DNA of 63,957 bases, counting the filler, from Elsinoe ampelina (taxonomy: Eukaryota), in assembly GCA_010093995.1 (NCBI GenBank). It is 5 parts of 4 records of this genome, joined end to end, with 100 filler letters (N's around TTAATTAATTAA, not from the genome) between each part and the next. Parts side by side here need not be neighbours in the genome. Positions count along the whole stretch, not along the records: positions 10,755 to 41,194 come from ML992515.1; 4 more parts are not named here. The stretch is one strand, 5' to 3'. Each line of letters opens with the position of its first letter. Position 1 is the first letter of the stretch. Both the position numbers and the translations under genes were made by a program. This document shows, one piece after another, positions 1 to 56,291 of the stretch. The notes under the pieces were generated by a model, which was not told the origin of the DNA, made no database searches, and was given only the letters and a program-made list of their open reading frames with translations.

Positions 1-3000
1 GTAGTACTTATTAGCTTATTCTACTATCCGTAACTAGGCAATAGCGAGGTTAGCCTTAGTAATAGCTAGTGCCTCTTCTAGTTGCTTAGTAAGTACGCAG
101 ATGTCGACCTTATTTAGCTTAGCTCTTATTAACGGTACGTCGGAAGGGGGCTAGAAGCTTAGCCTTAGCTTGTATTCTCTAGTGACCTTAAATAGTAATA
201 GCTTAGTACTCTCTAATAGGTTAATATTAGTGGAGAATTCTACGACTAGTAGAACAAGTGTCTAATTGCTAAAGCGTATAGCGTACGAATAGATAACTCG
301 CTTAAACTTACAATTTATAACCTCTAATTAGCTATCTATTTATAGATGCCCTATAGTAGACAGTTTAGTAGTAATCTTTAGGATTTAGTAGAGCCTTTTC
401 TATACGTCGCTAACGAACTAAGGGCCGTAATTCGAGGTAATACTATCTAGTAGACTATATAGTTTCTACATATAGAAGAATAATAGCTTAGTAGTCTCGA
501 ATACTAAAGTGCTACCTTCTCTAAAGAAGTATAGGATTAAATACTATTCCTTAGATAGGTAGTTAATAACATAGAGCACTACGTTATAGCTGTCTACTAA
601 AGGTAGACTAGTAATAAAGTCTATAGTAATGTATTACTATAGTCTTACTAGAATAGACAATAGCGATAGAAGGCTAGCTAGTAAGCTATAGTAAGCCTTT
701 AAGTGCTTATAGTTATAGTAGTTAGCGACGAACCTCTTAACGTTACTATTGTATCTAGGGATATAGAAAGTAGACTTAATTATAGTAGCCGTTTTAGTAG
801 CTCCTACGTGTATATAATTCTTCGATGTATAAACTCCTTAGATAACCTTCGTAGCTATAGAGAAAGGCACGATTAGTCGGCTATCGGCCTATAGTATTCC
901 CTTTTTAATTATAACATTAGTTAATAGTAGCTATTTCCTCTTTAGGAAGGCTTCTATTATATAGTAGATGCTACGAACTGTCTCGAAATTAGAGTCTCGT
1001 AGGTTAGCTTTAGCTACTTCGTCGAAAAGAGGTAAAGGCTCTTCTATAGCTAAGATAGGTGCTACGTAGATGTCTAGTTTAGTAGCTAAAATAGGCGCCG
1101 ATATAGGTAGCGAAATAGGAGGCGAAATAGGAGACAAACTAGATAGCGAACTAGTTTACGAACTAGATACTAAACTAGATCTTAGTTCGGCTCGGATTAG
1201 TAATCTAGTTTAGATGCGACCTAGATTTAGTTTGTCAATAATACGCTAATCTAGCACCTTATATAGTAGTAGCGTCTAGTATAGATTAGAGTCTTCTTTC
1301 GAATGTAGTATATCTTTATTTCTCCTTATAAGTGCGTCGGCTTTGCCGTTAGTAGCGCTAGGCCTATATATAATCTTAAAGTTAAACTACGCAAGGTAGA
1401 AGGCCTAGCGTACTTAGCGGTGTAATAGCTTCTAAGTCTTTATAAAGTACATTAAGGATTAGTAGTTAGTAAGGACGTAGATAGCCTTATTAGATTAAGT
1501 ACTTATAAGCTTAGAGGCCTACTCTTTAAAGGCTTAGATAATAGCTAGTAGCTCCTTGTTATAGATAGCGTAGTTACGCTTAGCTTTGTTTATAGACTTA
1601 CTAAAAAAGGTAATAGGCTAGAGAACGTCGGACTTATTATATTATAATAGAATTCCTATAGTAGTAGTGTCGGAAGTGTTAGTCTTAAGAACTATCTACT
1701 TTAAGCAATTAAAATGCGTAAGAATAGGCGTACTTATAATAGTGTACTTTATATAGTTAAAGGCAGTAGTGCATTTATCGTTCTATAGCGTAGTATCCTT
1801 CTTAAGTAGGTCGTTTAATAGCTTAGCAATAGTACTAAATTCCTTAATAAAGTAGTAATAGTAGCTATAGAAACTAATAAAGCTTCTTACCTAAGTAGTG
1901 TTACTAGGAGCTAGTTGTTTCTAGGCTTATATAGCTTCTATCTTCTTTAGATCTATTTTAACTCTATCTTAGCTAATAATAATACTAAGATACTTTACCT
2001 CTATTAGGTAGAACTTACTCTTCTTAATGTTAGTGTTTAGGCCTAATTCGTAGAGCCTCTAGAGCACTAGCTTAATATACTTAGCATACTCTCGGTAGGA
2101 GCTATTTATATAGATAAGAATATTATCTAGGTAGATCGACACGAAGCGCTCTAGTATATTAACAAAGTTGTAATTTATAAACTTCTACTAGACTATAGAG
2201 GCATTAGTAAGGCTAAACGGCATTACTAGCTACTTAAAGTTACTTATGTATATAGAGAACATAGTAAGGTCTTTACTATTAATAGAATTATAAAGGCAAT
2301 AGAAGGCTTAACAAATGTTAATCTTACTAAACTATTTAGCCTTACTTACGCATATAAGTGTTTCTTCGATAAGAGAAAGAGAATAGATGTCTTACTTAGT
2401 TACCTTATTAAGGCTATAGTAATTAACGTAAAGGCGAAGTCTACTACTAGACTTACAAATAAAGAGAATAGGTAAGGAATAGCTAGCTAAGCTCGGCGTA
2501 ATAAAGCCTTTATTAAGGTACTTATAGATAAACTATTCTACTATATCGAGCTCTTCTAGTAATAGGTAGCGTAGAGGTTTAGTGCGTAGTAGTTTAGCTC
2601 TATCCTTAAGTGTAATCTAATTGTTAAAATCTAGCCGATATAAAGGAAGTATATTAGATTACTCTTTAGAGAAGATATTAGTAAACTCTTATAGCTCCTC
2701 TAGGAGAACTACTATAGAATCTAGTTCTAGTTTAGAGGCTATTTAGTAGTAGTCCTTAATATTCTTTACTAAGATTATAAACACCTTATTCTCTTAGTAT
2801 TTAGCTACTAATACGAAGGTAGCAGCGCTAATAAAAGCGATAGTTAGCCTTTCTTACTTAGTGTTACTTACGTAGGTAGATACGTAGAAGAACTTATATA
2901 TTAACTAAGTGCTATAGGAGATTAGCTTAAACTTCTCCTAATTTAGCTTAAAGTTCGACCTAAGAGCTAGTAGTTAATATAGTCTAGTTCGTTCTAACTT

Positions 3001-6000
3001 AGTAGCCGAACTAGAACCTAGTTTATAAGTTGAACTAGAACTAAACTAGTTCTAAACTAGAATAGTAGCTTTACTAAGTTAGATTCCTAGATCTAAGCCG
3101 GGCTTAGATCTAGATCCTAGCTCTTTAATTAGCTACGGCAGCTCCCGCTTAATAATAACTAGTGAAAACTCTTCTTTATATATAACTCGGCTGTGTTTAT
3201 AATTAATAGTGGCCTTATTAGCCTTAAGCTAGCTAAGGCCAAGAATAATGTTAAATTAGCTAATATCTATAATACAAAAGGTAGTAAGGTTATTTAGCTT
3301 ACTAGAAATAGTAGTAGTAAGAGAAACGCTATATGTAACTTACTCTATTAGAACACCGTTATAGACTTAAAGCTAAATAGGACTAGCTAGTGCCACGGGG
3401 TAGCCGAAGCTCTTTAGCTTATTAAGAACGTTGTAATTAACTACGGCGCTAATAAGCGTACTAGTGTCGATAAAGGCTTAAAGTGTAATAGTGTAAGAGT
3501 AGTTATAAGGGTTATAAATAGTAATAGGAGTTATAATAGCGGGGATATAGTAGCTAATAATGCTATTTAGTAACTATATATCTCCGAATCTATCTCGAAT
3601 TACCCTTGTTCTACTAGAGAATAAGACTTGTTCTCTAGCTACTCGTTTCTCTAGCTAGATAGGTTAGTAGACTTATAATCTATTTCGGGGTTAAACTAAG
3701 GCTAAGCTAGATCTAGTTCGTAAGCTAAACTAGTATTAACTTAGTTACTTAATTTAGCTAAGCAATCCTAGAGCTATTATATCTCTTCTATAGCGCTAAT
3801 ACATGTAGGGCATATAGCAGCGTAAGTAGCCTTCTCTAAGGCGCTAGCTATACACTTAGTAGAGATATAGCTAGGCTTACTATATACATAATAGGTAAGT
3901 ACTAGAGCCGGACAAAAAGGCTATAGAGCACCTCTAGTAATAGAGCGGAAGGTAGGTAGAGCTATAGGCGCGAAGGTAGAATAAGATACGTAAGTAGGTA
4001 TAGTAGTAGTATAGCTTATAGCTAGTATAGAACGTAAAGCCTAAGTGCGCTTAGTGATAAGGTTATTCTATTAAATATTATAGTTAGTAGCGTAGGCCTT
4101 AGTAATAAAGGCAGTAAGATTATTAGTGTCGTAGTTAACTAGAGCATTACGTAGCTTATTAGATATCTTCTAATAGATTTAGTATAGCTACTCCTCTTTA
4201 GCGATCTTAGTGCAAAGGGCGTACTTATTAAACTCGCTAATAAAGGAGTTAAATGTACTATTATACTAGAAGAGGTTAGCGAACTAAGTATATATAGTAG
4301 CTCTATAGTTAGAATCCTCGAAGCGCTAGGCTAGGAGAGTAAGGACCTCTTCGATACTAATAACGTTATTACTAGCTAAGTCTATAATAAGAGTATAGGC
4401 TTCTCTAGAGAGGCGTAAGTATAGATAGGTAAACTAGGTATTCCTTATAGAGAAACGATCTACGTTAGTACATATCTTATTCCTTATCTAGTGCTTAAAG
4501 ACCTCGAACTACTCTAGTGTACCTATGCTAAAGATAGTAGAGTCTAGTATCTTTTCTAACAAGGTAGAGCTACGTATAGAAAGAGCTAGTATACTACGCT
4601 CTATCTCGTTTCTTAGTTAGTTTACCTTAGCCTTAAGCTCTTAGATTTTGTCTAGGTAGTAAGTAGCTTAGGTAGTAACGCTATTAGTATAGAACTAAGA
4701 TACGTCTAGTTTAGATTAGAGGTTACTAAGCTAGGCCTAAGTAGTATCTAACTTNNNNNNNNNNAATAGGCGTACTTATAATAGTGTACTTTATATAGTT
4801 AAAGGCAGTAGTGCATTTATCGTTCTATAGCGTAGTATCCTTCTTAAGTAGGTCGTTTAATAGCTTAGCAATAGTACTAAATTCCTTAATAAAGTAGTAA
4901 TAGTAGCTATAGAAACTAATAAAGCTTCTTACCTAAGTAGTGTTACTAGGAGCTAGTTGTTTCTAGGCTTATATAGCTTCTATCTTCTTTAGATCTATTT
5001 TAACTCTATCTTAGCTAATAATAATACTAAGATACTTTACCTCTATTAGGTAGAACTTACTCTTCTTAATGTTAGTGTTTAGGCCTAATTCGTAGAGCCT
5101 CTAGAGCACTAGCTTAATATACTTAGCATACTCTCGGTAGGAGCTATTTATATAGATAAGAATATTATCTAGGTAGATCGACACGAAGCGCTCTAGTATA
5201 TTAACAAAGTTGTAATTTATAAACTTCTACTAGACTATAGAGGCATTAGTAAGGCTAAACGGCATTACTAGCTACTTAAAGTTACTTATGTATATAGAGA
5301 ACATAGTAAGGTCTTTACTATTAATAGAATTATAAAGGCAATAGAAGGCTTAACAAATGTTAATCTTACTAAACTATTTAGCCTTACTTACGCATATAAG
5401 TGTTTCTTCGATAAGAGAAAGAGAATAGATGTCTTACTTAGTTACCTTATTAAGGCTATAGTAATTAACGTAAAGGCGAAGTCTACTACTAGACTTACAA
5501 ATAAAGAGAATAGGTAAGGAATAGCTAGCTAAGCTCGGCGTAATAAAGCCTTTATTAAGGTACTTATAGATAAACTATTCTACTATATCGAGCTCTTCTA
5601 GTAATAGGTAGCGTAGAGGTTTAGTGCGTAGTAGTTTAGCTCTATCCTTAAGTGTAATCTAATTGTTAAAATCTAGCCGATATAAAGGAAGTATATTAGA
5701 TTACTCTTTAGAGAAGATATTAGTAAACTCTTATAGCTCCTCTAGGAGAACTACTATAGAATCTAGTTCTAGTTTAGAGGCTATTTAGTAGTAGTCCTTA
5801 ATATTCTTTACTAAGATTATAAACACCTTATTCTCTTAGTATTTAGCTACTAATACGAAGGTAGCAGCGCTAATAAAAGCGATAGTTAGCCTTTCTTACT
5901 TAGTGTTACTTACGTAGGTAGATACGTAGAAGAACTTATATATTAACTAAGTGCTATAGGAGATTAGCTTAAACTTCTCCTAATTTAGCTTAAAGTTCGA

Positions 6001-7990
6001 CCTAAGAGCTAGTAGTTAATATAGTCTAGTTCGTTCTAACTTAGTAGCCGAACTAGAACCTAGTTTATAAGTTGAACTAGAACTAAACTAGTTCTAAACT
6101 AGAATAGTAGCTTTACTAAGTTAGATTCCTAGATCTAAGCCGGGCTTAGATCTAGATCCTAGCTCTTTAATTAGCTACGGCAGCTCCCGCTTAATAATAA
6201 CTAGTGAAAACTCTTCTTTATATATAACTCGGCTGTGTTTATAATTAATAGTGGCCTTATTAGCCTTAAGCTAGCTAAGGCCAAGAATAATGTTAAATTA
6301 GCTAATATCTATAATACAAAAGGTAGTAAGGTTATTTAGCTTACTAGAAATAGTAGTAGTAAGAGAAACGCTATATGTAACTTACTCTATTAGAACACCG
6401 TTATAGACTTAAAGCTAAATAGGACTAGCTAGTGCCACGGGGTAGCCGAAGCTCTTTAGCTTATTAAGAACGTTGTAATTAACTACGGCGCTAATAAGCG
6501 TACTAGTGTCGATAAAGGCTTAAAGTGTAATAGTGTAAGAGTAGTTATAAGGGTTATAAATAGTAATAGGAGTTATAATAGCGGGGATATAGTAGCTAAT
6601 AATGCTATTTAGTAACTATATATCTCCGAATCTATCTCGAATTACCCTTGTTCTACTAGAGAATAAGACTTGTTCTCTAGCTACTCGTTTCTCTAGCTAG
6701 ATAGGTTAGTAGACTTATAATCTATTTCGGGGTTAAACTAAGGCTAAGCTAGATCTAGTTCGTAAGCTAAACTAGTATTAACTTAGTTACTTAATTTAGC
6801 TAAGCAATCCTAGAGCTATTATATCTCTTCTATAGCGCTAATACATGTAGGGCATATAGCAGCGTAAGTAGCCTTCTCTAAGGCGCTAGCTATACACTTA
6901 GTAGAGATATAGCTAGGCTTACTATATACATAATAGGTAAGTACTAGAGCCGGACAAAAAGGCTATAGAGCACCTCTAGTAATAGAGCGGAAGGTAGGTA
7001 GAGCTATAGGCGCGAAGGTAGAATAAGATACGTAAGTAGGTATAGTAGTAGTATAGCTTATAGCTAGTATAGAACGTAAAGCCTAAGTGCGCTTAGTGAT
7101 AAGGTTATTCTATTAAATATTATAGTTAGTAGCGTAGGCCTTAGTAATAAAGGCAGTAAGATTATTAGTGTCGTAGTTAACTAGAGCATTACGTAGCTTA
7201 TTAGATATCTTCTAATAGATTTAGTATAGCTACTCCTCTTTAGCGATCTTAGTGCAAAGGGCGTACTTATTAAACTCGCTAATAAAGGAGTTAAATGTAC
7301 TATTATACTAGAAGAGGTTAGCGAACTAAGTATATATAGTAGCTCTATAGTTAGAATCCTCGAAGCGCTAGGCTAGGAGAGTAAGGACCTCTTCGATACT
7401 AATAACGTTATTACTAGCTAAGTCTATAATAAGAGTATAGGCTTCTCTAGAGAGGCGTAAGTATAGATAGGTAAACTAGGTATTCCTTATAGAGAAACGA
7501 TCTACGTTAGTACATATCTTATTCCTTATCTAGTGCTTAAAGACCTCGAACTACTCTAGTGTACCTATGCTAAAGATAGTAGAGTCTAGTATCTTTTCTA
7601 ACAAGGTAGAGCTACGTATAGAAAGAGCTAGTATACTACGCTCTATCTCGTTTCTTAGTTAGTTTACCTTAGCCTTAAGCTCTTAGATTTTGTCTAGGTA
7701 GTAAGTAGCTTAGGTAGTAACGCTATTAGTATAGAACTAAGATACGTCTAGTTTAGATTAGAGGTTACTAAGCTAGGCCTAAGTAGTATCTAACTTGTAG
7801 TAGTAGTAGAGAGCGTTAGTATAAGTGCCTTTTACCTACGTAGTCTACTTATTATAGAAGGACTTAACATAGTTAAATACGTCTCTTAGTGCCTATATAC
7901 TATACTCTTCCTATAGCTTCTTAAGGAGTATAGCGTTAGAGAGGGTAAAAAGATTATAGTAGGGAGAGTAGATAGAGGCGTTATTATTGT
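1..7990 (-). mobile_element. RIP-degraded Ty3/Gypsy LTR retrotransposon, family A (copy A1; integrase to gag, 3' end outside window)
   Basis: Reverse complement is colinear with the + strand copy at 41295-47357. RT YLDD is readable at ~2115-2135 (atctacctagataatattctt), the protease AFIDT at ~3460-3480. Stops are TAG/TAA from C>T and G>A changes. Contains the artefactual 3 kb duplication and is interrupted at 7991 by a Copia LTR. Confidence 0.9.
1723..7796. repeat. Exact tandem duplication 1723-4754 = 4765-7796 around a 10-N gap (assembly artefact)
   Basis: Both 3032-bp copies start aataggcgtacttata and end gtagtatctaactt and appear identical, including RIP mutations. They are separated by exactly 10 N. 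Confidence 0.9.
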
Positions 7991-10754: not shown

Positions 10755-11493
10755 AAGCTCCTAAAGCTAGGCTTTACTTAGAGCAAAGTAGATCTCTATC
10801 TTCTTATATACTATAATAAGAAGATTATTCTTTTAGTTTATATTAATAACATATTATTTGTAGCATAAAGTAAAGAAAATATCTAGTAGTTTAAGCAAAA
10901 ACTTAGTAAGATCTTTAAGATTAAAGATCTTAGTAAGGTTAATAAAGTTCTTAGGGTTAAAGTTATAAGGGATAGATAATAAAGCACCTTAAGACTTAAT
11001 TAAACCTACTATGTAGATAATATGCTATAGAGGCTTAATATAACCTCTGATAAAGTTACTCTAATAAAGTAGCTAATAGACAATAAGCTCCCTTAAAGAG
11101 CTTAGGAAGATAATATAAGGTTTAGTAGAACTAAATATTTATATACTATTAGAAGCTAGATATACCTTAGTACCCTAATAAGGCTAGATACTACCTTTGC
11201 CTTAGGAAGGCTAAGTTAGTTTATAGCAGATCTAATAGACAGTTATACTATTAAGATAAAGAGGATATTAAGATATATTAGATTAACTAAAGATCTTAGC
11301 ATTGTATTTAGGAGGAATAGAGGTAAGACTCTTAAGAGATACTCTAATTTAGATTATGCCTTAGATAAGTCAGATAGAGTTTCTATCCTTAGATATGTCT
11401 TTATACTTATAGGTAGTTCTATTAGCTAGATAAGTAAGAAGTAGAAGTCTGTTTTAACCTCTACTATAGAGGCTAAATATATAGTAATATACT

Positions 11494-11956
11494 TGTCACG
11501 AACCGTCTAAACATAGCCTACGCTAGTAGTCTAAGCTAAGCTAAGAACGAGGTAGTTCTACTTCTATAGTAGTATAGCACTAAGGTAAGAGTTAGAGAAG
11601 GTATGTCTTATAGATAATAAAGTATAATTAGATAGTATTATAAAGGCTAGCCTTAGCAATACTAGTGTTTACTATCTAGACAAGGTTAACTATAGTACTT
11701 ATATAAGGTAAGGACTACTCCTATATATATGTGTTCTTTACTGTGTACTTTATATGCTCTATATACTTCGTAGCGAGAGTCGGAGGTAACATAAAGTACA
11801 CGTCTACTAGTAACCTACGTGCTCTATAGTCCCTAGGGCAGAGCTACTAGAGAAGATAGAGAACTAGGTAAACGTCGGGCTAGGTCACGTAATAACCTTA
11901 GTAGTTTAATTAGTCCTAACGTCCTTACGCTTTAGCTGTCCTACTAGTTCGTAACA
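11494..11956 (-). repeat. 3' LTR of Gypsy B1 (463 bp)
   Basis: Inverted termini tgtcacgaac...gttcgtaaca. An adjacent polypyrimidine run (ttactctcctctctt) is the PPT on the minus strand. Homologous to 34673-35137. Confidence 0.9.
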
Positions 11957-12030
11957 TTACTCTCCTCTCTTAATCGAGTTGTTCTAATAAGTAAGTATCC
12001 TTCCTTGTCCTTACGCGCTATATACTAAAT

Positions 12031-12579
12031 ATGCCTCCTAGTTGTCGAAGGTATAGTAAATCTAGTATATCTACACGAAAGAATCTCTTAGAGTTTATTA
12101 AATTGTTTAGAACTAACATGCTATAAGCTTGCTCTTGTTGTAAGTTAAAAGGGCTAGACTATAAAGTCTACGTTCGGTTAGGTATTTATAGCTAGTATGT
12201 CGTAAGTAACTACTTAGGTTATAATATTCAGGTAACAAAATCGAAATAGTAGTGTCTCTAGTCTAAGTATATTCGTTTACGAAAGGAATTAGTTATAGCT
12301 AAGGCTACTAGAAAGAAAGCTAAAGAAGCTTATAAAAAGGCAAAAGAGGCTTGTTAAAGAGCTATAGGCAATAAGCTTCGCCTATATAAAGAGATATAAA
12401 AGTTAAAAAACAAGGCGGAGAAAGTAATCTCTCTAGAAGAGACTTATATTTAAGTCTTAGAGTAGGAGGAAATACTATTATCGGTAGATCCCGTCTTACT
12501 ATAGAACTAGTAATTATTTATGCCTAACTCTAATTAGAGTTCCTTACTTAGCAACGATTAAGGTACTTCTATTAGTTAA
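12031..12579 (+). pseudogene. Antisense accessory ORF of Gypsy B1: Zn2Cys6-spaced cysteine cluster plus coiled coil (RIP'd)
   Basis: ATG at 12031 (MPPSCRR...). Reads C-S-C-C-KLKGLD-Y-KVYVRLGI-Y-S*-Y-VVSNYLG-Y, where the TAT/TAC codons are RIP products of TGT/TGC. A K/E/A-rich helix follows. The 3' end is approximate. Confidence 0.7.
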
Positions 12580-15500
12580 GTAATCTTCCTTAGGCATTCT
12601 CGTTTTTGTTTAGTATTTAGAGTGCTAGGTCTATCTAGTTAGTTTACTTAGGATAGGTTCTCGATCTAGTAATCTAGGATTACTTACGAGGTAAGGTACT
12701 TCTCTAGTTCCTATATTACTTTACTATACTAATGTTTCTTCTAGTAAATAAGATAGTAGCGTTTTTCTTTTATAAGTTTATAACGTAAAACCCTTTCAAT
12801 CTTATACTATAGCTCCTATGTTTCTTTATCTAGTTCGATAGGTCCGGGTATAGTATTCTATAGTACTTTCTCTAGTAGTAATATATAAAAGACTAGATAG
12901 ATCCTTATATGTCTTAGTAGTTCTAGTTTGTATATATTCTTGTTTTTCTTTTCTAGGATCTTAAAGGGTCCTAGTTTAGTATAGTTAAGTTTCTTACTTA
13001 GTTGTTTCGTTTTAATGTTTTTACTAAGGAGGTAAACTTTCTCTCCCTCCTATAGAATTAGTTCTACAATTCTCTTCTAGTTAGTAAACCCTATTATTCT
13101 TTATAATATAAATGCTATATCGTAGTATAGCTAGTCGTATAGTTTCTTAATGTTAGCTACTAGTATATTAGTATCCTTAGATATTAGCTTAATTCCGAGT
13201 GTGTTATAGTATAGATCTAGGTATATTCTATAGTTTACGTAGAATAGTAAAATTCTATTCGCTAACTTTCTATTATTAATAGCAAGCTCTACGAGCAGTA
13301 ATAGCGTTACCTATAAGTCTTGCTTATAGTTTAGGTAGCATCGTAGGTACTACTCTAGTACTTAATTTACCTGTTTAGTTTGTCCGTCCGTTTATAGATA
13401 AAAGGAGATTAATAGCTTATATTTAACTCCTAGTAGGTCTATAAATAATTATTAGAATTATAACGTAAATAGCTTATCTCTATTAGTTATTAGGTCTCGT
13501 AGTACTCTATGTTATAAAACAATTATTCGGAGGAAGGTAAAGGCTATATCCTTAGTAGTTACTATTGTCTTATATAGTATAAAGTAGTAATACTTCGTAA
13601 ACCTATCTACTAGAACTAGAATGCTATTATACTTTATACCTATAAGAGGTTCTTCTAATAGTAGTAAAGGTTCTATAAAGTCTATTATAACTAATTGCTA
13701 TAGTTTATCTAGTGGTAGCAAGAGTTATAATAGGCTATATAGCTTATATCGTAAGTGCTTAGACTTATAGCATATATCGTATATAGTAATATATGTTTTA
13801 ATATCGTTTCGGAGTTCTTTCTATAGGTAGTTTTATGTAATAAGTTTAATAGTCTTGTTAATCCCGCTATGCCCTACTATTAGGTTATTATAGTATATTT
13901 AAATAACTTCTTTCTTCTGTTCTTACGTAAGCTCCTAGGTAAAGCTATATAACTACTCTACCTTTAGGTGCTTATAGACTAGAGCGCTATCTTACTACTT
14001 TAGCATAGAGGCCTCTATTATTGTTATATTCTTTAAGTAATCTAGTTGTCGGCTAAGAGCGTCTACTCTACTATTCTCTAATCCCTTAACATAGTAGATC
14101 TAAAAGTTGTAGCTTATAAGTGTTTCTAACTATCGAACCTGTTGTCTATTAAGAACCTTAGTTATTGTCTAATATAATAGGTTCTTATAGTCGGTATAGA
14201 CTTATATAGGTAAGGTTATTCCTTCTAGGTATACTCTCTATTCGCGGAATACCTCTATAATTGTAAGTAACTCTTTATTATATATATTATAGTTAAGTTT
14301 AGGTCTAGTCATTTTTCGTAAGTAGTATATAATTAGATAGCGTTATTCTTCTACGTCCTTCTACGCTAGATACGCTTCTATTATAAAGTCTAAGGCATCC
14401 GTTTCTAGTAGTGCTTATTAGTCTAGGTCGAAGAGTGCTAGGATAGGTACTATTATAAGTCTAAGCTTTAGCTCCTTAAAGGCCTACCTATATTTCTTAT
14501 CGAAGACAAATCTAGTTTCTTTCTTTATAAGGTTAAATATTAGCGTAGCTACCTTAGAGAATCCTTTAACAAACTTGTAGTAGTAGTTAAAGAACTCTAG
14601 TAGCGCTTAAACCTTCTTAACTATAGTAGGTTCTAGCTAGTCGTTTACTAACTTAATCTTTTTTAGGTCGGGTCTAATACTATTAGTAGATATAACATAG
14701 CTTAGAAATTATATCTTGTGTTTATAAAACTTACACTTAGAGAGCTTTACTAATAGGTCTTTTTCTTTTAGTTTCTATAGCACTTTATAAACATGTTCTA
14801 TATGTTTATTATATATCTTTAAGAAGATAATAATATTGTCTAAATATGCTAAGATAAAGTTATTAAGGTATTCTTATAGAGTGTTATTAATTAACTCTTA
14901 GAAGGTTATAGGAGCATTAGTTAACCTAAAGGGCATAACGAGGTACTTATATAAACTCTATTATATTCTAAAAGCTGTCTTCTACTCCTTGCCCTCCTTT
15001 ATTTATACTTAATAATAGGCGTCCCTAATGTCGATTATAGTGAACTATTTAGCTCTAAGTAGTTAGTCTTAAAGTTTATTAATCCTTAGTAGGGGATAGT
15101 AATTCTTCCTAGTAAGTGTATTAATTTTCTAGTAATTAATGTATATTTGTAATATTCTATCCTTTTTAGGTGCAAAAAGCACTCCGTGTGTAATAGGTAA
15201 TTTTAATAGTTATATAAATCCTTTAAGTAAGTACTTGTTGATATAGTTCTTAAGGACGTTCTCCTCTTGTTTCGATAGTAGTATAAGACCTTAATAGTGT
15301 ATCGGGGATTTACCCTCTTTAAAGAGTATTTTGTAATTCTATAGTTTATATTAGAGTAAGGCCGCGATGCCTTCTCTTTCTTTAAATAAGTCCTTAAAGT
15401 CTTTATATTCCGGCGGAAGTACTTAATTGCTTACGCTAGTAATAGCTCTAACTATTAGTTATACCTATACTGTCCTTATAGTTAGTATCTATAGAGCTAA

Positions 15501-17680
15501 TTATGCTCTCTACGTTCTATAATTACACTTAGGGAATTCGAGTGTTTCTTTAATCTAGTCTACGTCTAGATTATGTTATTAAAGCTAGTCTATACTAAGT
15601 ACTATATTATACTATATATTAACTATATCGATTAATTGTTTTTCTATATGTGTTTCGATTTTAATTATAACGTTTCGTAGTTCTTAAGTAACTTTCCTAT
15701 TCTTCCCTATAGAGGTTCTATCCGCTATAGTAAGTAGGTAAGGTAACTCCTTCTAGTGTTAATAAGGCTTAAGCTAATTAGCAACTGTTATAGAGACGTA
15801 GCTATAGTTAGCTCCTAAATCTATTATTGCTCTTACCTTACTCTCTTATATTTCGACTTCTAGTATAAAGTAGTTTAACGTATAGATCTTTATTATATTA
15901 AGGCTTTAGCTAGTATTATTATCTTGCCTTATTAGGTAACAACTAGCTAGTTTTTTGTTATTGTAGCTTCTTAGATAAGTAGCTAATCCCTTTCTATATA
16001 TATCTACTATTAGTACTATATCTATTAGGTAAGTTGTGTTTTGTCGCTATTTAATATAGTAAGGTAAACTTCTAGCGCCTAAGTTCCTTAGTGACTATAA
16101 AGTCCAATAATTCTCTACTAGTTACACTAAGTAGTGTTATACACCTATATTAGTATAACTATTCCTTCCGGGTGTAGCTAGGTATTAGCATTAAAGACGA
16201 AAACAGGTTATATAGATTTGTCTTGTCGTGTCCTATTCTAGTAGTAGGTGTATATTATTATATAATTCCTCTATATCCCTATAAGGTATGCTTTAAGTTG
16301 TCCGCCTAGTAGTAGTACATCGTTGTCGTTATTATTGTTAGATAAGTCCTTATCTATATTATTATATTATAGTTATTCGGTGTATTCTTCGTTGTATTTC
16401 TCTTCGTTGCTACTGCCCCTAGTATAGTTATAGTTAGTAAGGCTATACTAAGTATATTCTCTTACTTAGCTATAGGGGATAGTACTACCTATTTCGATTA
16501 CCGAGAAGTCTATAGTGTATTTAAGACTAATAGCATCTTCTCTAAGTACATCGTGTAAGTAGATAGTATAGTACTATTCGTAATCTAGATTTATACATTT
16601 CTAGAGCGATATATAATATACCTTTCCTTATAGTGCGCCGTAAGGGCTAAAGGTAAGGCTACTATATTATTATATAGCACTTACGTCCTAATACTTCGTC
16701 TCGATAATCGTATATTAGTAATTATTACTAACTACCTTCTATAGTTAGTTACTGTTACTACTAATTATAGAAAGCCCTTCTAGGTCGGGTTCCTAGTCTA
16801 GCTATTTCGTTAGTTGCCTACGCTTAGATAGCTTATATAGGAACTAACTAGATCCCTGCTTATCTAATAAGTGAATATAATAAGAGTTATTATAATATGC
16901 TATCTATAATAGTGTTACGTGTTAGCTTTGTTATTTACGGTCGGTTATAGAGATATTAAGTGTAACATCTAGAGAGAATTCTACTACCTCTCGAGTTATT
17001 ATAGACTCCTTCTATATTTCCTTACCTACGCTAAAGGTCGTTAGGTCTTCTATAGTAGTGTTAGCCTTTTTCTCTACTAGCCTAGTAACTATTATATATA
17101 ATCTATCGGCTAGCGCCTCTTATTAGTAGTCTCTAGCTCGATGCCTAGGTCTTTTACACTTAAAACATAGGTTGTCTTATCTATACTTCTCTCTCTCTTT
17201 TCTACTAAGGAACTTTCTTCTATAGCTATAGCCTTATACCTATAAGGGGTAGCCTTCGCGTATAGTATTAAGTTCTATAGAGTCTCTATAGTTTCGGAAG
17301 AAACGCGTATATCTAGTGTTTACCTTATATCCTCTACGACGTTCTATATGTTATTTGTAAAGTCTATTATTAATAGCAATTGTAGTGTCTACTAGTTTCT
17401 AAAGGCTGTTAGGCGGCTCGAGTATTATTTAGTCTTTAACTAAGTCGCTTAGTCCTTAATAGAATACTAAGTGTTTAGTACTATTGTCCTAGTCTAGATA
17501 TATTACGAGTTATTAGAACTAGGAATAGTACTAGGCTATAGACCTATATTATTATAGTTATTAGATCTTCGTTATAGTAACGCATTCCTTATTAGATATA
17601 TTAAAGACTTACTTAATCTTTGCCTAGAAGATGCTAAAGCTCTTAAAGATAGCCTTTATATCTAGGCCTAGTTATCTATC

Positions 17681-29231: not shown

Positions 29232-29531
29232 TAGCTAGCAGGGGACAGCTAGTAGTTTATTATGTCGAACTAATAATTTCTTAGTTCTCTCTCTCGAAGT
29301 TTAAAGATGACCTAAAATTTCGACCTAACTATAGCTAGCAGGGGATAGCTAGTAGTTTATCGCGTCGAACTAATAATTTCTTAGTTCTCTCTCTTGAAGT
29401 TTAAAGATAACCTAAAATTTCAACCTAACTACGGCTAGTAGGGGATAGCTAGTAGTTTATTACATCGAACTAACAATTTCTTAGTCCTCTCTCTCGAAGT
29501 TTAAGGATGACCTAAAATTTCGACCTAACTA
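29232..29531. repeat. Tandem repeat, 3 x 100 bp
   Basis: The unit tagctagcaggggacagctagtagtttat...cctaaaatttcgacctaacta starts at 29232, 29332 and 29432. Copies differ by transitions. Confidence 0.92.
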
Positions 29532-34300: not shown

Positions 34301-34672
34301 TATTAAGGATAAGTATCTTTATAGTCTTATAAATATATAGAAGAAGATCGAACGGGATATAGATAAGAGTATATAAGAGACAATCGACAGGTAAAAGGAC
34401 AAATCTAATAAGCCTAAAGTGACATTAGAGACGATTCTTAATAAGAAGACTAAGGAGTAAATACTAAGCCTAGTTACGCCGCTACTACTTTTCTCTATAT
34501 TTCTCGCTCTTATAGATATATTCTAGAACGATCCTATAGTCGTAGAAGAGTTTAGCAACTTTACTATTAAGTTTACCTACGAAATTATATATAACTCCTC
34601 GGAGATAGCGCTATAGTAGTATATAGACAAGATTTACGCTAGTCCTTAGATAAAGGTCCTTTATAGTGTTAT
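31357..34672 (+). pseudogene. RIP'd SNF2-family (SF2) helicase gene, truncated by Gypsy B2 insertion
   Basis: One frame contains motif I FIFTYKIEFKKT (de-RIP FxFAHEMGFGKT, 33081-33116), motif II IFNKFY (de-RIP IFDEFH, 33720-33737) and motif III LGISGTL (de-RIP LGMSGTP, 33804-33824). These match SNF2 ADEMGLGKT / DEAH / LTGTP. A 47-bp intron lies at 32399-32445 with a RIP'd donor. Confidence 0.75.
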
Positions 34673-35137
34673 TGTTACGAACTGTCTAAACATAGCCTAT
34701 ATTAGTAGTCTAAGCTAAGCTAAGAACGAGGTAGTTCTACTTCTATAGTAGTATAGTACTAAGGTAAGAGTTAGAGAAGGTATGTCTTATAGATAATAAA
34801 GTACAATTAGATAGTATTATAAAGGCTAGCCTTAGTAATACTAGTGTTCGCTATCTAGACGAGGTTAACTATAGTACTTACATAAGGTAAGGACTATTCC
34901 TATATACATGTGTTCTTTACTATATACTCTATATGCTCTATATACTCCGTAGTAGCGCTACTAGAAAAGATAGAGTATACGTCTACTAGTAATTCTATAC
35001 GCTCTATAGTTTCTAGGGTAGAGCTACTAGAGAAGATAGAGAACTAAGTAATTGTCGAGCTAGGTTATATAATAACCTTAGTAGTTTAATTAGTCCTAAT
35101 ATCTCTACGCTCTAGCTTATCCTACTAGTTTGTAATA
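34673..35137 (-). repeat. 3' LTR of Gypsy B2 (465 bp)
   Basis: Termini tgttacgaac...gtttgtaata, PPT complement adjacent, homologous to 11494-11956. Confidence 0.9.
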
Positions 35138-35211
35138 TTACTCTTCTCCTTTAATCGAGTTGTCTTAACGAGTAAGTATTCTTCTCTATCTTTACGCGCT
35201 ATGTACTAAAC

Positions 35212-35760
35212 ATGCCTCCTAGTTGTTAAAGATATAGTAAATCTAGTATATCTACACGAAAGAATCTCTTAAAGTTTATTAAACTATTTAGAACTAATAT
35301 GCTATAGGCTTATTCTTGTTGTAAATCGAAGAGGCTAGACTACAAGGTCTATGTTCGGTCGGGTATCTATAGCTAGTATATTATAAGTAACTACTCGGGT
35401 TATAATATTTAAGTAACAAAATCGGAATAGTAACGTCTTTAGTCTAAGTATATTCGTTTACGAAAGGAATTAGTTATAGCTAAGGCTACTAGAAAGAAAG
35501 CTAAAGAAGCTTATAAAAAGGTAAAAGAGGCTTATTAAAGAGCTATAGGTAATAAGCTTTACCTACGCGAAGTAATATAGAAACTAGAGAATAAGGCGGA
35601 GAAAGTAATTTCCCTAGAGGAAACTCGTATTTAAGTTCTAGAGTAAGAGGAAATACTATCGTTAGTAAATCCTGTCCTACTATAGGATTAGTAATTATTT
35701 ATGCCTAACTCCGATTAGAGTTCCTTATTTAGCAACGATTAGGGTGCTTCTATTAGCTAA
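35212..35760 (+). pseudogene. Antisense Zn2Cys6-like/coiled-coil ORF of Gypsy B2 (RIP'd)
   Basis: ATG at 35212, colinear without indels with 12031-12579. Confidence 0.7.
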
Positions 35761-38700
35761 GTAGTCTTCCTTAGGCATTCTCGTTTTTGTTTAGTGTTAG
35801 TAGCGTCTAGCCTACCTAGTTAGTTTACTTAGGATAGGTTTTTAGTTTAGTAATCTAGGATTACTTACGAAGTAAGGTATTTCTCTAGTTCCTATATTAC
35901 CTTACTATACTAATGTCCTTTCTAGTAGATAAGATAGTAACGTTTTTCCCTTATGAATTTATAATGTAAAACCCTTTTAATCTTATATTATAGCTCCTAT
36001 GTTTCTTTATCTAGTTTAATAGGTCTAGGTACTACGTCCTATAGTACTTTCTCTAATAGTAATACATAAAAGACTAGGTAGATTCTTATATATCTAGGTA
36101 GTTCTAGTTTATATACGTTTTTGTTTTTCTTTTCTAGGATCTTAAAGAGTTCTAGTTTAGTGTAGTTAAGTTTCTTACTTAGTTGTTTCGTTTTAATGTT
36201 TTTACTAAGGAGATAAACCTTCTCTCTCTCCTATAGAATTAGTCCTATAATTCTCTTCTAGTTAGTAAATCCTACTATTCTTTGTAATATAAATGCTATA
36301 TCTTAGTATAGCTAGTTATATAACTTCTTAATGTTAGCTACTAGTCTATTTATATCCTTAGACATTAGCTTAATTCCGAGTATATCGTAGTATAGATTTA
36401 GGTATATTCTATAGTTTATATAGAATAGTAAAACTCTATTTGTTAACTTTCTATTATTAATACTAAGCTCTATAAGTAGTAATAGCGTTACCTATAAGTC
36501 TTACTTGTAGTTTAGGTAGTAGCGTAGGTACTACTCTAGTACTTAATTTGCCTATTTAGTTTGTCTATTCGTTTATAAGTAAAAGAAGGTTAATAGCTTA
36601 TATTTAACTCCTAGTAGGTCTATAAATAATTACTAGAATTATAACATAAATAGCTTATCCCTATTAGTTATTAGGTCTTATAGTACTCTATATTATAAAA
36701 CAATTATTTAGAGAAAGGCAAAGGCTATATCCTCGGTAGTTACTATTGTCTTATATAGTACAAAATAGTAATACTTTATAAACCTATCTACTAGGACTAG
36801 AATACTATTATACTTTACACCTATAAGGAGTTCTTCTAATAGTAGTAGAGGTTCTATAAAGTCTATCGTAACTAATTACTATAGTTTGTCCGGTAGTAGT
36901 AAGGGTTATAGTAGGCTATATAGTTTATATCGAGAGTGTTTAGACTTGTAGCATATATCGCATATAGTAATATACGTCTTAACATTGTTTCGGAGTCCTT
37001 TCTAGAGGTAGTTTTATGTGATAAGTTTAATAGTCTTATTAATCCCGCTATGTCCTATAGTTAAGTTATTATAGTATATTTAAATAACTTCTTTTTTCTG
37101 TTCTTACGTAAGCTCCTAGGTAAGGCTATATAACTACTCTACCTTCGGGTATTTATAGACTAAAGCGCCGTCCTACTACTTTAGCATAGAGGTCTCTATT
37201 ATTATTATGTTTTTTAAGTAATCCGGCCGGCGGCTAAGAGTGTCTACTCTACCGTTCTCTAATCCCTTAACATAGTAGATCTAGAAGTTATAGCTTATAA
37301 GTGTTTCTAACTATTAAACCTATTATCTATTAAGAACCTTAGTTATTGTCTAATATAGAAGGTTCTTATAGTCGGTATAGACTTATACGGGTAAGGTTGT
37401 CTCTTCTAGGTATACTCTCTATTCGTAGAACGCTTCTATAATTATAAGTAATTCCTTATTATATATGTCGTAGTTAAGTTTAGATCTAGTCATTTTTCGT
37501 AAGTAGTATACGATCGAGTAGTGTTATTCTTCTATATTCTTCTATACTAGACACGCTTCTATCGTAAAGTCTAAGGCATCTATTTCTAGTAGTACTTATT
37601 AGTCTAGGTTAAAGAGTGCTAGGACAGGTGCTATTATAAGTCTAAGCTTTAGCTCCTTAAAGGCCTACCTATATCTCTTATTAAAGATAAAGCTAGTTTC
37701 CTTTTTCGTAAGGTTAGATATTAGCGTAGCTACCTTAGAGAATCCTTTAACAAACTTATAGTAGTAGTTAAAGAACTCTAGTAGCGCTTAAACCTCCTTA
37801 ACTATTGTAGGTTCTAGCTAGTTATTTACTAACTTAATCTTCCTTAGATTAGGTCTAATACTATTAGTAGATATAACATAGTCTAGAAATTATATCTTGT
37901 ACTTATAGAACTTATACTTAGAGAGTTTTACTAGTAGGTCTTTCTCTTTTAGTTTTTATAGCACTTTATAAATATGTCTTACATGTTTGTTATACGTCTT
38001 TAAGAAAATAATAATATTATCTAAATATACTAAGATAAAGTTATTAAGGTATTCTTATAGAGTGTTATTAATTAACTCTTAAAAGGTTATAGAAGCATTA
38101 GTTAACTTAAAGAGTATAACGAGGTACTTATATAGACTCTATTATGTCCTAAAAGTCATTTTCTACTCCTTACTCTCCTTTATTTATACTTAATAATAGG
38201 CGTCTCTAATATTAATTATAGTAAACTATTTAGCTCTAAGTAGTTAGTCTTAAAGTTTATTAATCCTTAGTAGAGGATAGCGATTCTTCCTAGTAAGTAT
38301 ATTAAGTTTCTAGTAATTAATGTATATTTATAATATTCTATTCTTTTTTAGTGTAAAAAGCACTCCGTATGTAATAGGTAATTTTAATAGTTGTATAAAT
38401 CCTTTAAGTAAGTACTTATCGATGTAGTTCTTAAGGATATTCTTCTCTTGTTTCGATAGTAGTATAAGACCTTAATAGTATATCGGGAATTTACTCTCTT
38501 TAAAAGGTATTTTATAATTCTATAGTTTATATTAGAGTAAGGCTATAATGTCTTCTCTTTCTTTAAATAAGTTCTTAAAGTCTTTATATTCTAGCGGAAG
38601 TGCTTAATTACTTACGCTAGCGATAGCTCTAACTATTAGTTATACCTATACTATTCTTATAGTTAGTATCCGCGGAGCTAATTATGCTCTCTACGTCCTA

Positions 38701-41294
38701 TAATTATACTTAGGAAATTCGAGTGTTTCTTTAATCTAGTCTACGTCTAGATTGTATTATTAAAGCTAGTCTATACTAAGTACTATATTATACTACATGT
38801 TAACTATATTAATTAATTGTTTTTCTATATATGTCCTAATTCTAATTATAACGTTTTATAGTTCCTAAGTAACTTTTCTATTCTTCCCTATAGAGGTTCT
38901 ATCCGCTATAGTAAGTAAGTAAGGTAACTCCTTTAATATTAATAAGGTTTAAGCTAATTAGTAACTGTTATAGAGACGTAGCTATAGTTAGCCCCCGAAT
39001 CTATTATTGCTCTTACCTTATTTCTCTATATCTAGACTTCTAGTATAAAGTAATTTAATATATAGATCTTTAATATATTAAGGCTTTAGCTAGTGTTATT
39101 ATCTTGCCTCGTTAGGCGACAACTAGCTAGTTTTTTGTTATTATAGCGCCTTAGATAAGTAGTTAATCCCTTCCCGCACGTATCTATTATTAATATTATA
39201 CCTATTAGGCTAGTTATGTCTTATTATTATTTAACATAGCAAGGTAGACTTCTAGTGCTTAAGTTCCTTAATAACTATAAAGTCTAATAATTCTCTATTA
39301 GTTACACTAAGTAGTATTACACACTTATATTAGTATAACTATTCTCTCTAGGTGTAGCTAGGTATTAGCATTAAAGACAAAAGCAGGTTAAGTAGATTTG
39401 TCTTGTCGTGTTCTATTCTAGTAATAGGTATATATTATTATATAGTTTCTCTATATCCCTATAAGGTATACTTTAAGTTGTCTACCTAGTAGTAGTACGT
39501 CGTCGTTGTTATTAGATAAATTATTATCTATGTTGTTACATTATAGTTGTTTAGTATATCCTTTGTTGTATTTCTCTTCGTCGCTACTGCCTCTAGTATA
39601 GTTATAGTTAGTAAGGCTATACTAAGTACATTCCCGTACTTAGCTATAGGGAATAGTACTATCTATTTCGATTACCGAGAAGTCTATAGTGTACTTAAGA
39701 CTAATAGCCTCTTCTCTAAGTACATTATGTAAGTAAATAGTATAGTACTATTCGCAATCTAGATTTATATATTTCTAGAGCGATATATAATATACCTTTC
39801 CTTGTAGTTCGCTATAAGAGCTAAAGGTAAGGCTACTATATTATTATATAGCACTTACGTCCTAATACTTTGTCTTAATAATTATATATTAGTAATTGTT
39901 ACTAACTACCTTCTAAGGTTAGTTAATGTTACTACTAATTATAGGGAGCTCTTCTAGGTTAGGTTCCTAGTCTAGCTATTTTATTAGTTGCCTATGCTTA
40001 GATAGCTTATATAGAAACTAACTAGATCTCTACTTGTCTAATAAGTAAATATAACAAGAGTTACTATAATATACTATCTATAATAGCATTGTATATTAGC
40101 TTTATTGTTTGCTATTAGTCGTAGAGATATTAAGCGTAATATCCGGAGAGGATTCTATTACCTCTTAAGTTATTATAGACTCCTTCTATATTTCCTTACC
40201 TACGCTAAAGATCGTTAGGTCTTCTATAGTAGTATTAGCCTTTTTCTCTACTAGCCCGGTAACTATTATATGTAATTTATTAGCTAGCGCCCCTTGTTAG
40301 TAGTCCCTAGCTTAATACCTAGGTCTTTTACACTTAAAACATAGATTGTCTTATCTATACTTCTCTCTCTCTTTTCTACTAAGGAACTTTCCTTTACGAC
40401 TTTAGCCTTATGCCTATAAGGGGCGACCTTCGCGTATAGCGTTAAGTTCTATAGAGTCTCTATAGTTTCGAGAGGAACGTATATATCTAGTGTTTACCTT
40501 ATATCCTCTATAACGTTCTATATATCGTTCGTAAAGTCGGTTATTAATAGTAATTATAGTATCTACTAGTTCTTAGAGGCTATTAGGCAACTCAAGTATT
40601 ATTTAGTCTTTAACTAAGTCGCTTAGTTCTTAGTAGAATACTAAATGTTTAGTACTATTATCCTAGTCTAGGTACATTACGAGTTGTTAGAACTAGGAAT
40701 AGTACTAGGCTATAGACCTACGTTGTTATAGTTGTTAGATCTTCGTCGCGGCGATACGTTCCTTATTAGATACGTTAAAGACTTACTTAATCTTTGCCTA
40801 GAAGATACTAAAGCTCTTAAAGATAGCCTTTATATCTAGGCCTAGTTATCTATCTAGGTAGCTACTTATATAAGGCTCGAACCACCTAAAGGTAGCGCCT
40901 TTAAGGTGTATTCCGGCATAGAGGACCTTTACTATGTCGTTAGCGTACTTATCTCTCTCTAGGGCGAAGAAGGCTTTAAGTTAAATAAGGAAGCGCCTTA
41001 AGTAGGCGTAGTTCCCGTAGAAGAGTTCTACTTCTAACTTAGGCTTACTCCGTCCTTCCCCTATACTAAGAGACCTTCTATGTTCGCCCGAGGTTAAACT
41101 AGTAATAGACATGTTATTAATAATAAGCTTTCCTAGCTTACTAGCAATCGAAGATGCTAATAGTAACTTAGAGTAAGAGTTACTTATTAACCTTNNNNNN
41201 NNNNNNNNNNNNNNNNNNNNNNNNNNNNNNNNNNNNNNTTAATTAATTAANNNNNNNNNNNNNNNNNNNNNNNNNNNNNNNNNNNNNNNNNNNN

Positions 41295-54874: not shown

Positions 54875-54883
54875 TATATATAT
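54875..54883 (+). promoter_or_regulatory. TATA box of expansin-like gene
   Basis: TATATATAT about 95 bp upstream of ATG 54976, in GC-balanced context. Confidence 0.55.
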
Positions 54884-56224: not shown

Positions 56225-56291
56225 TTCTAGTCGTGTTGAGTGAGGTGCAGTCGCCGGAAGGTTGATATTGGGAAAGCCCCACACAGTCCAT

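What the first reader, a model, noticed from the sequence alone, without database searches (positions are those of the whole stretch)
12031..12579. Gypsy family B carries an antisense ORF reconstructing to a Zn2Cys6-spaced cluster plus coiled coil
Seen: in both copies (12031-12579 and 35212-35760) an ATG-initiated frame of ~180 codons lies between the 3' LTR and the pol end, on the strand opposite gag-pol and without indels. Merging the copies and reverting TAT/TAC to TGT/TGC gives C-x2-C-x6-C-x8-C-x2-C-x7-C, followed by a long E/K/A/R helix. Known: this spacing fits the Gal4-type consensus C-x2-C-x6-C-x5-12-C-x2-C-x6-8-C. Antisense accessory genes have precedent in fungal Gypsy elements (brtn of Botrytis Boty). 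Inference: a retrotransposon-encoded dimeric DNA-binding regulator driven from the 3' LTR. Four of the six cysteines are inferred, not observed.
Basis: partly seen in the sequence, partly recalled or inferred. Interest (0 to 1): 0.72.

Follow-up and report, generated by a model that had tools for sequence, protein, structure and literature searches.

The report
Dead antisense zinc-cluster retrotransposon gene
The stretch is a mutation-killed copy of a real extra gene that a group of fungal jumping genes carries backwards next to its end repeat; intact relatives encode a small six-cysteine, coiled-coil protein that probably regulates the element itself, but nobody has tested what it does.

Summary
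Real gene, dead here. Both window copies (14 and 16 internal stops) are RIP-damaged members of a 7-kb chromoviral Gypsy family; 100 of 112 genomic matches are near full length and none is open. The least-mutated natural copy, read with X at stops, finds an unnamed ascomycete protein family: six Cys kept in 57-60 of 60 chosen homologues, spacing 2-6-8-2-(6-8). In 15 of 19 metagenome loci it sits antisense and tail-to-tail with pol; dN/dS is 0.054 in the one clearly unsaturated pair. Helix length varies in whole heptads (44 of 45). It is Gal4-like, not a canonical Gal4 member: the recognition Lys is in 6 of 54, the loop Pro in 0 of 54, fold matches are all Zn2Cys6 but not significant, and a homologue's dimer is predicted antiparallel (0.48 against 0.00). 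Best guess: an element-encoded LTR regulator (0.45); DNA binding, zinc binding and expression are not shown. The arrangement has precedent (brtn, Retand); homology to BRTN could not be tested. This scan noted the same kind of gene before, on other DNA.

The parts
11494..11956 (-). 3' LTR of copy 1 (463 bp, TG...CA ends); element runs on the minus strand
   Evidence: ends; two 450-460-bp direct repeats about 7.0 kb apart in 4 other genomic copies
11720..11729 (.). TATA-like site in the LTR; a CTATATA-like site recurs 250-345 nt before the antisense ATG in most relatives
   Evidence: function inferred
11884..11893 (.). RIP-altered E-box-like site in U3; intact in the least-mutated copy; CACGTGA occurs in 10 of 16 related LTR ends
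11957..11971 (-). polypurine tract next to the 3' LTR
12031..12579 (+). antisense accessory gene, copy 1: 182 codons, 14 internal stops (RIP pseudogene)
12058..12123 (+). basic N-terminal helix (about codons 10-31), conserved in the family
12130..12222 (+). six-cysteine cluster region, codons 34-64, spacing C-x2-C-x6-C-x8-C-x2-C-x7-C
12244..12465 (+). coiled coil, about codons 72-145; length varies in heptads across the family
12466..12576 (+). C-terminal tail; acidic and aromatic in intact homologues (candidate activation or partner-binding region)
12576..15962 (-). pol of copy 1 (protease, RT, RNase H, integrase, chromodomain at about 12684-12806), RIP-broken; a pol-frame stop at 12576-12578 overlaps the antisense stop
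34673..35137 (-). 3' LTR of copy 2 (465 bp)
35212..35760 (+). antisense accessory gene, copy 2: 16 internal stops (RIP pseudogene)
35868..39142 (-). pol of copy 2, RIP-broken, with a frameshift near 38950

Best explanation
Shown (about 0.97): the stretch is a RIP-killed copy of a third gene of a chromoviral Gypsy element. It is encoded antisense, starts 74 nt inside the 3' LTR and ends tail-to-tail with pol. Intact relatives keep it under purifying selection and encode a 150-230-residue protein: basic helix, six-Cys cluster, heptad coiled coil, acidic-aromatic tail. Inferred: the 3' LTR fires an antisense transcript; the six Cys bind two zinc ions in a Gal4-like binuclear cluster; the coil makes a homodimer, predicted antiparallel; the heads bind repeated short sites in the U3 part of the element's own LTRs (candidate GA[G/T]CA, not CGG); and the acidic-aromatic tail recruits the transcription machinery. 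The element would thus carry its own transactivator. In this genome the gene is dead in every copy found. The confidence given is for the regulator mechanism.
For: Homologues: 86 hits, best E 4e-32, 48% identity; six Cys in 57-60 of 60. Context: pol on the opposite strand directly downstream in 15 of 19 loci, 12 of 15 distinct elements; LTR end and polypurine tract upstream in all 16 loci examined. Selection: dN/dS 0.054 for L067/L074 against 0.121 for their integrase-chromodomain region; 0 gap openings in 16,462 aligned bases of the frame against 24 in 15,130 bases on the LTR side, 30 copies. Fold: top 17 of 25 Foldseek rows for the head domain are Zn2Cys6 proteins, local rmsd 1.6-2.6 A over 28-36 residues for four of them. 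Coil: spacing 2 mod 7 in 44 of 45. Dimer: 0.48, best of 3 controls 0.00; mark reached by 21 of 30 solved homodimers and 0 of 23 single chains; runs agree in at least 88% of contacts, pLDDT 81. Charge: head median +7, last 50 residues negative in 47 of 48, median -7.5, median 4 Trp+Phe. LTR: GAGCA 74 against 16.2 expected, GATCA 58 against 9.9, one or the other in 15 of 16 U3 ends.
Against: The Gal4 recognition Lys is in only 6 of 54 and the loop Pro in 0 of 54. No fold match is significant (best E 0.073; best Z 3.1). Zn_clus matches 10 of 61 members at E up to 0.1, best 0.0026. Gal4-type dimers are parallel (recalled); the model is antiparallel. The LTR motif was found after the fact, the loci are related, and I had no control LTRs lacking the gene; LTRs often carry short repeats for host factors. 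The gene tree follows the integrase tree only weakly (Mantel 0.24, p 0.12, 11 elements). Codons 44 and 53 read Tyr in all 50 copies here, so their Cys rests on homologues alone.
Confidence: 0.45

Rival explanations
1. Brake or anti-silencing adaptor. The protein is nuclear but dampens the element (copy-number control, as HTLV-1 HBZ opposes Tax; recalled) or shields it from host silencing. It acts through partners bound by the tail and coil, with or without direct DNA binding; the convergent antisense transcript may add RNA-level control.
For: Same anatomy as the best explanation. The canonical base-reading Lys is absent. The gene ends overlap pol or lie within 9 nt of it in 11 of 11 loci measured, which favours transcriptional interference. 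PMC7264820 (passages) raises both protein and dsRNA roles for such ORFs. Poor tree congruence with integrase fits a swappable conflict module.
Against: An acidic-aromatic tail is more typical of activators (recalled). No partner or silencing evidence was obtained. RIP still destroyed all copies found here.
Confidence: 0.25
2. DNA bridge. An antiparallel rod with a zinc head at each end (about 100 A apart for a 70-residue coil; my estimate at 1.5 A per residue) ties two DNA sites together: the two LTR ends of the cDNA, or the cDNA and a chromatin target. It is a structural part of integration or targeting rather than a transcription factor.
For: The confident contacts are antiparallel: 88 with 130, 95 with 123, 102 with 116, 109 with 109. 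The two conserved ends of the helix are the parts that pair, and the variable middle changes in whole heptads, 30 to 65 residues.
Against: The orientation comes from one model of one homologue, folded without an alignment; the score was calibrated on binding, and on eukaryotic chains with no older solved relative only 1 of 7 passed. A pol-less derivative keeps the gene (L059/L060), and the gene does not track integrase. The acidic tail is unexplained.
Confidence: 0.18
3. RNA-side factor. The basic zinc head binds element RNA (export, packaging or the gag-pol frameshift) rather than DNA.
For: Basic head; kept together with gag in a pol-less 2.4-kb element; Rev-like roles are suggested for such ORFs in PMC7264820 and PMC11963269 (passages).
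Against: The nearest folds are DNA-binding Zn2Cys6 domains; no RNA element was looked for.
Confidence: 0.1
4. No gene: the frame is a chance product of reading RIP-damaged non-coding DNA.
For: Stop counts in the RIP-damaged copies do not favour this frame; no Pfam hit for the window's own reading.
Against: Intact homologues at E 4e-32, the same place in related elements, dN/dS far below 1, and a foreign profile that starts at the ATG.
Confidence: 0.02

Closest known systems
[quoted passage not shown] 2011; original paper not held, seen only through PMC7264820 and 10.1101/2021.04.13.439636 passages)
   Same: Extra ORF, antisense, between pol and the 3' LTR of an ascomycete Gypsy element; function unknown.
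   Different: Sequence homology could not be tested: no BRTN sequence was available and no named hit came from Botrytis or Sclerotinia. The passages read report no zinc cluster for BRTN.
Gal4-type Zn(II)2Cys6 transcription factors (Gal4, Hap1, Ppr1, Put3, Leu3, Pho7, Cep3; Pfam PF00172)
   Same: Six Cys inside the C-x2-C-x6-C-x5-12-C-x2-C-x6-8-C spacing, two short helices in the model, followed by a dimer helix; nearest solved folds. UniRef names three homologues 'Zn(2)-C6 fungal-type domain-containing protein'.
   Different: No recognition Lys, no loop Pro, fixed 8-residue V-H-x-R-S-G loop, an extra basic helix in front, a long coil predicted antiparallel, too short for the regulatory middle region, and encoded by a retroelement.
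Plant antisense aORFs between pol and the 3' LTR (Grande gene23, RIRE2, Retand TRP28/PF04195)
   Same: Position, orientation, presence in most copies, proposed DNA-binding regulatory role (PMC7264820, PMC11963269 passages).
   Different: No match to PF04195 among the families shown; those are non-chromoviral plant lineages with kilobases between pol and LTR, here the gene fills nearly the whole gap.
HTLV-1 HBZ (antisense bZIP from the 3' LTR; recalled, antisense HTLV genes mentioned)
   Same: Antisense gene from the 3' LTR for a small coiled-coil nuclear regulator: a functional analogue only.
   Different: bZIP, no zinc cluster, animal retrovirus; no homology claimed or tested.

Membership tests
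Chromoviral Ty3/Gypsy LTR retrotransposon | pol order protease-RT-RNase H-integrase with C-terminal chromodomain | tested here: met
   RVT_1, RT_RNaseH, Integrase_H2C2, rve, SH3_Tf2-1, Chromo in that order in the least-mutated copy; protease Pfam hits in the 64.5%-identical relative L058
Chromoviral Ty3/Gypsy LTR retrotransposon | two LTRs with TG...CA ends and a polypurine tract | tested here: met
   paired LTRs in 4 of 5 fetched copies (the fifth is window copy 1, which runs into N)
Antisense additional ORF between pol and 3' LTR (aORF-3R) | antisense, between pol end and 3' LTR, in most copies of the family | tested here: met
   100 of 112 matches near full length; 15 of 19 foreign loci
Antisense additional ORF between pol and 3' LTR (aORF-3R) | conserved like the element's other proteins | tested here: met
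   dN/dS 0.054 against 0.121 for integrase-chromodomain in one pair; 0.07-0.12 in 5 near-saturated pairs; 19 of 25 pairs saturated
Antisense additional ORF between pol and 3' LTR (aORF-3R) | antisense transcript from the 3' LTR | not testable with these tools
   needs stranded RNA from a fungus with an intact relative
brtn / BRTN family | sequence homology to BRTN | not testable with these tools
   paper not held; no BRTN sequence returned by any search
Gal4-type Zn(II)2Cys6 | six Cys spaced C-x2-C-x6-C-x5-12-C-x2-C-x6-8-C | tested here: met
   54 of 60 homologues have 2-6-8-2-(6,7,8); in this family four of six Cys are seen directly in some copy
Gal4-type Zn(II)2Cys6 | binuclear-cluster fold | tested here: inconclusive
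   top rows all Zn2Cys6 but best E 0.34 and 0.073; Ppr1 Z 3.0, rmsd 8.8 over 54
Gal4-type Zn(II)2Cys6 | recognition Lys four residues after Cys2 (Gal4 Lys18; feature recalled) | tested here: not met
   Lys in 6 of 54, Lys or Arg in 10 of 54, Gly or Asn in 34 of 54; Gly or Glu/Arg variants in this family's copies
Gal4-type Zn(II)2Cys6 | Pro two residues before Cys4 (feature recalled) | tested here: not met
   0 of 54; Gly in 47
Gal4-type Zn(II)2Cys6 | significant match to Pfam Zn_clus | tested here: not met
   10 of 61 members at E up to 0.1, best 0.0026, none at 0.001; recalled PROSITE-like pattern fits 7 of 61
Gal4-type Zn(II)2Cys6 | parallel coiled-coil dimer placing two heads side by side (recalled) | tested here: inconclusive
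   coiled coil supported; one model of one homologue is antiparallel
Gal4-type Zn(II)2Cys6 | binds two Zn ions and CGG triplets | not testable with these tools
   CGG is not enriched in 16 U3 ends: 81 observed, 70.1 expected

The most novel reading that the evidence does not exclude
A widespread clade of ascomycete chromoviruses is 'complex' in the retroviral sense. It encodes, antisense from the 3' LTR, its own sequence-specific regulator: a divergent Zn2Cys6 head that reads GA[G/T]CA arrays in U3 instead of CGG, on an antiparallel coiled-coil rod whose length is tuned in heptad steps. The dimer would bridge distant LTR sites. The gene-LTR module is swapped between pol lineages and is kept even by pol-less derivatives.
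Probability: 0.2. Interest if true: 0.85.

Novelty: new variant of a known kind. Interest (0 to 1): 0.58.

Why it matters
Fungal LTR retrotransposons are usually treated as gag-pol only, and the role of antisense extra ORFs in LTR elements is stated as unknown in both papers read on them (PMC7264820, PMC11963269). This family gives the question a small, intact, easily expressed protein, a candidate target (the U3 repeat arrays) and a sharp structural prediction (antiparallel dimer). If it is a transactivator or brake, it changes how fungal transposon bursts are controlled, and any solo LTR would carry a site for a mobile transcription factor near host genes. It also matters for annotation: some 'Zn(2)-C6' or hypothetical fungal genes are probably retrotransposon genes. 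The copies in this window are dead.

Tried and rejected
Stop counts as proof of the frame: uninformative in the heavily damaged copies, weakly favourable in the least-mutated one (3.3 per 100 codons, like pol at 3.2; other frames 4.4-9.9). Pfam on the window's own readings: nothing useful. Word-index search with the least-mutated copy: 0 of 128 candidates. PDB sequence search with the family profile: best E 0.24, coiled-coil noise. VIA-align on the whole model: generic coiled coils, Z up to 6.8; on the head alone best Z 3.1. ESM Atlas: nearest clusters are unnamed Ascomycota proteins; Zn(2)-C6 clusters appear by structure only under the bar. IMG/VR scans for the gene and for a related integrase: none confirmed, so I have no control elements lacking the gene. 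Intact or domesticated host copy: none; the 66 matches to an intact homologue all hold stops. Strict co-inheritance with pol: not supported. CGG sites in the LTR: not enriched. Literature: searches returned 0 papers; others listed none that describes a zinc-cluster gene in a fungal LTR element (judged from listings). PMC3248453 has no occurrence of 'antisense', 'zinc' or 'GAL4'. PMC2864245 draws an 'add. ORF of unknown function' in some fungal elements; its .doc supplements were not read and may bear on novelty, as may the subscription paper on brtn.

Full report
OBSERVATION. The two stretches are parts of one repeat, 11493-17680 and 34672-40854, 88.5% identical. The region is AT-rich, with TpA/ApT near 1.8-2.4 and depleted CpA/TpG. 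Among 31 copies, 1706 of 1712 differences in the frame are transitions. This is the signature of repeat-induced point mutation (RIP). Both stretches begin with ATG, run 182 codons and carry 14 and 16 internal stops, with no indel between them. Pol lies on the other strand and has RT, RNase H, integrase and chromodomain matches. The 3' LTRs are 11494-11956 and 34673-35137, followed by a polypurine tract; the ATG is 74 nt inside. Four other genomic copies show two LTRs about 7.0 kb apart.

COPIES IN THE GENOME. A protein search gave 112 matches, 100 near full length, all with stops. One copy (L031) has only 5 stops. Over 50 ungapped copies (51 examined; L050 dropped for a 22-base gap; L009 and L010 read alike; two are cut by N after codon 112), Cys is seen at codon 34 in 5, at 37 in 10, at 56 in 6 and at 64 in 2. 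Codons 44 and 53 read Tyr in all 50, and His is seen at none of the six. Codon 47 reads His once, and His is the homologues' residue there (37 of 60), so the tally can tell His from Cys. Against the frame: stop counts do not single it out in the damaged copies (16.2 against 15.2-21.8). For it: 0 gap openings in 16,462 aligned bases, against 24 in 15,130 on the LTR side and 0 in 24,672 at the pol end (30 copies).

HOMOLOGUES. L031 read with X at its stops gave 86 hits among 1.84 billion representatives, best E 4e-32. Six are unrelated long or repetitive proteins and were dropped. Of the other 80 I aligned 60; the 20 left out were mostly fragments or looked RIP-damaged themselves, several with Tyr at Cys positions, so the counts below lean towards intact genes. 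Cys is found in 58, 59, 58, 57, 60 and 59 of 60 at the six positions; 54 have spacing 2-6-8-2-(6, 7 or 8). A profile of 19 intact homologues hits the window only at 12031 and 35212. Named members come from Hortaea, Aulographum, Friedmanniomyces, Oleoguttula, Sporormia and Thyridium, as hypothetical or 'Zn(2)-C6 fungal-type' proteins. Atlas clusters are unnamed and mostly Ascomycota.

CONTEXT OF INTACT RELATIVES. One metagenome scan gave 19 loci (its pattern selects the closer subfamily). In 15, pol lies directly downstream on the opposite strand; two have under 250 bases downstream; two (L059, L060, one element) lack pol. That element is 2.4 kb, has 330-bp LTRs and holds only gag and this gene. 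Counting near-identical loci once, 12 of 15 elements show pol. All 16 loci examined have an LTR end and purine tract within about 110 nt of the ATG. The gene end overlaps the pol end by up to 185 nt or lies within 9 nt of it in 11 of 11 loci measured; L065 and L069 have a 4-nt stop overlap, the geometry also seen at 12576-12579, though RIP makes the true pol stop uncertain there. L058 is the closest relative (pol 64.5%; gene 40%, E 5e-44).

SELECTION AND HISTORY. For L067/L074, dN is 0.026 and dS 0.481 (ratio 0.054) against 0.121 for integrase-chromodomain. Five more pairs give 0.07-0.12 with dS above 2, and 19 of 25 pairs are saturated. The gene tree and integrase tree agree only weakly (Mantel 0.24, p 0.12, 11 elements; L056 and L066 change sides). 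This suggests swapping of the 3' module, but support in the gene tree is modest and I ran no topology test.

PROTEIN. The AlphaFold2 model of the best homologue (pLDDT 86) shows a helix at 17-31, two short helices in the Cys region, one helix at 75-158 and a loose tail. All 21 Foldseek rows shown are Zn2Cys6 proteins by title or my recall, best E 0.34. For the head alone the top 17 of 25 rows are, best E 0.073; VIA-align is inconclusive. Pfam Zn_clus matches 10 of 61 members weakly. The Gal4 recognition Lys is in 6 of 54 and the loop Pro in 0 of 54 (features recalled). The distance between the two conserved helix anchors is 30, 37, 44, 51, 58 or 65 in 44 of 45 homologues, and 44 in this family; an alignment-free measure agrees in 26 of 27. 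That is good independent evidence for a coiled coil. A homodimer of residues 12-160 of P0003 scores 0.48 against a best control of 0.00; the mark was reached by 21 of 30 solved homodimers and 0 of 23 single chains, the runs agree in at least 88% of contacts, and pLDDT is 81. The model supports binding and does not show it; a coiled coil may pass by likeness to solved ones. Its contacts are antiparallel. The head is basic (median +7) and the tail acidic and aromatic.

LTR. In 230 nt of U3 from 16 loci, GAGCA occurs 74 times (16.2 expected), GATCA 58 (9.9), CACGTGA 24 (1.0, 10 loci) and CGG 81 (70.1). The E-box is probably a host bHLH site (inference). GA[G/T]CA is my candidate for the encoded protein; it is post hoc and uncontrolled.

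HOW IT MOST LIKELY WORKS. Shown: a conserved antisense gene, six Cys, coiled coil, selection. Inferred: antisense transcription from the LTR, zinc binding, dimer, binding to U3 repeats, activation through the tail (0.45). Rivals: brake or anti-silencing adaptor (0.25), DNA bridge (0.18), RNA factor (0.10), no gene (0.02).

WHAT IS KNOWN. Antisense ORFs at this place are known from Boty (brtn) and plant elements, function unknown (PMC7264820, passages; 10.1101/2021.04.13.439636, passages; PMC11963269, passages). The brtn paper is not held, so homology is open. PMC2774666 (passages) notes extra genes in a clade of fungal chromoviruses, citing dUTPase. PMC2864245 (passages and section 5) draws an additional ORF of unknown function; its supplements were not read. 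PMC3248453 (passages) says nothing on the matter. Nine searches listed no paper on a zinc-cluster gene in a fungal LTR element; subscription journals are mostly missing from that library. The protein works like a Zn2Cys6 regulator but fails three membership features, so I file it as Zn2Cys6-like. This scan noted the same kind of gene before, in this genome and others; those are unchecked notes and were not counted as support.

VERDICT. New variant of a known kind; interest 0.58.

Noticed in passing
L059:4674-7086 (same element in L060:7551-9964): A 2.4-kb element with 330-bp LTRs (95% alike) that holds only gag (Retrotrans_gag, CCHC knuckle) and the antisense zinc-cluster gene, with pol absent: a non-autonomous derivative that kept the accessory gene.
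   Followed up: partly
U3 ends of L056-L074 and L031; window 11720-11956: Arrays of GAGCA/GATCA and a CACGTGA E-box-like palindrome between the TATA-like site and the LTR end, strongly above shuffles. No control LTRs.
   Followed up: partly
L031:4184-4215; window copy 2 at 34812-34843: A 32-bp imperfect palindrome inside the LTR, seen in several copies.
   Followed up: no
L056 and L066: Antisense gene and integrase fall on opposite sides of their trees, suggesting recombination of the gene-plus-LTR module between pol lineages.
   Followed up: partly
L031 (G000:C86), 1-4356: One copy of the family is far less RIP-damaged (GC 39-49%, 5 stops in the frame) than the roughly 100 others; it lies on a 6.5-kb contig.
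   Followed up: yes
L031:5557-6292: Nested inverted repeats of 59-155 bp beside the element, possibly a small DNA transposon remnant.
   Followed up: no
window 1-4637, 4765-7796, 42070-46994, 60538-62826: A second RIP-damaged Gypsy family (pol about 32% identical to L058); the family profile found no antisense homologue in it at iE under 1, though RIP lowers sensitivity.
   Followed up: partly
window 1723-4754 and 4765-7796: A 3032-bp tandem duplicate that is 100% identical across a short N run, in otherwise heavily RIP-diverged repeats: probably an assembly artefact.
   Followed up: no
window 49531-59386: GC-balanced host gene island; by my reading of the ORFs (not checked by search): carnitine acetyltransferase, a Rad51/Rad57-like fragment, an expansin-like secreted protein (54976-55659), Pop8-like, Ess2-like and a branched-chain aminotransferase.
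   Followed up: no
window 29232-29531: Three tandem copies of a 100-bp unit, about 90% alike.
   Followed up: no
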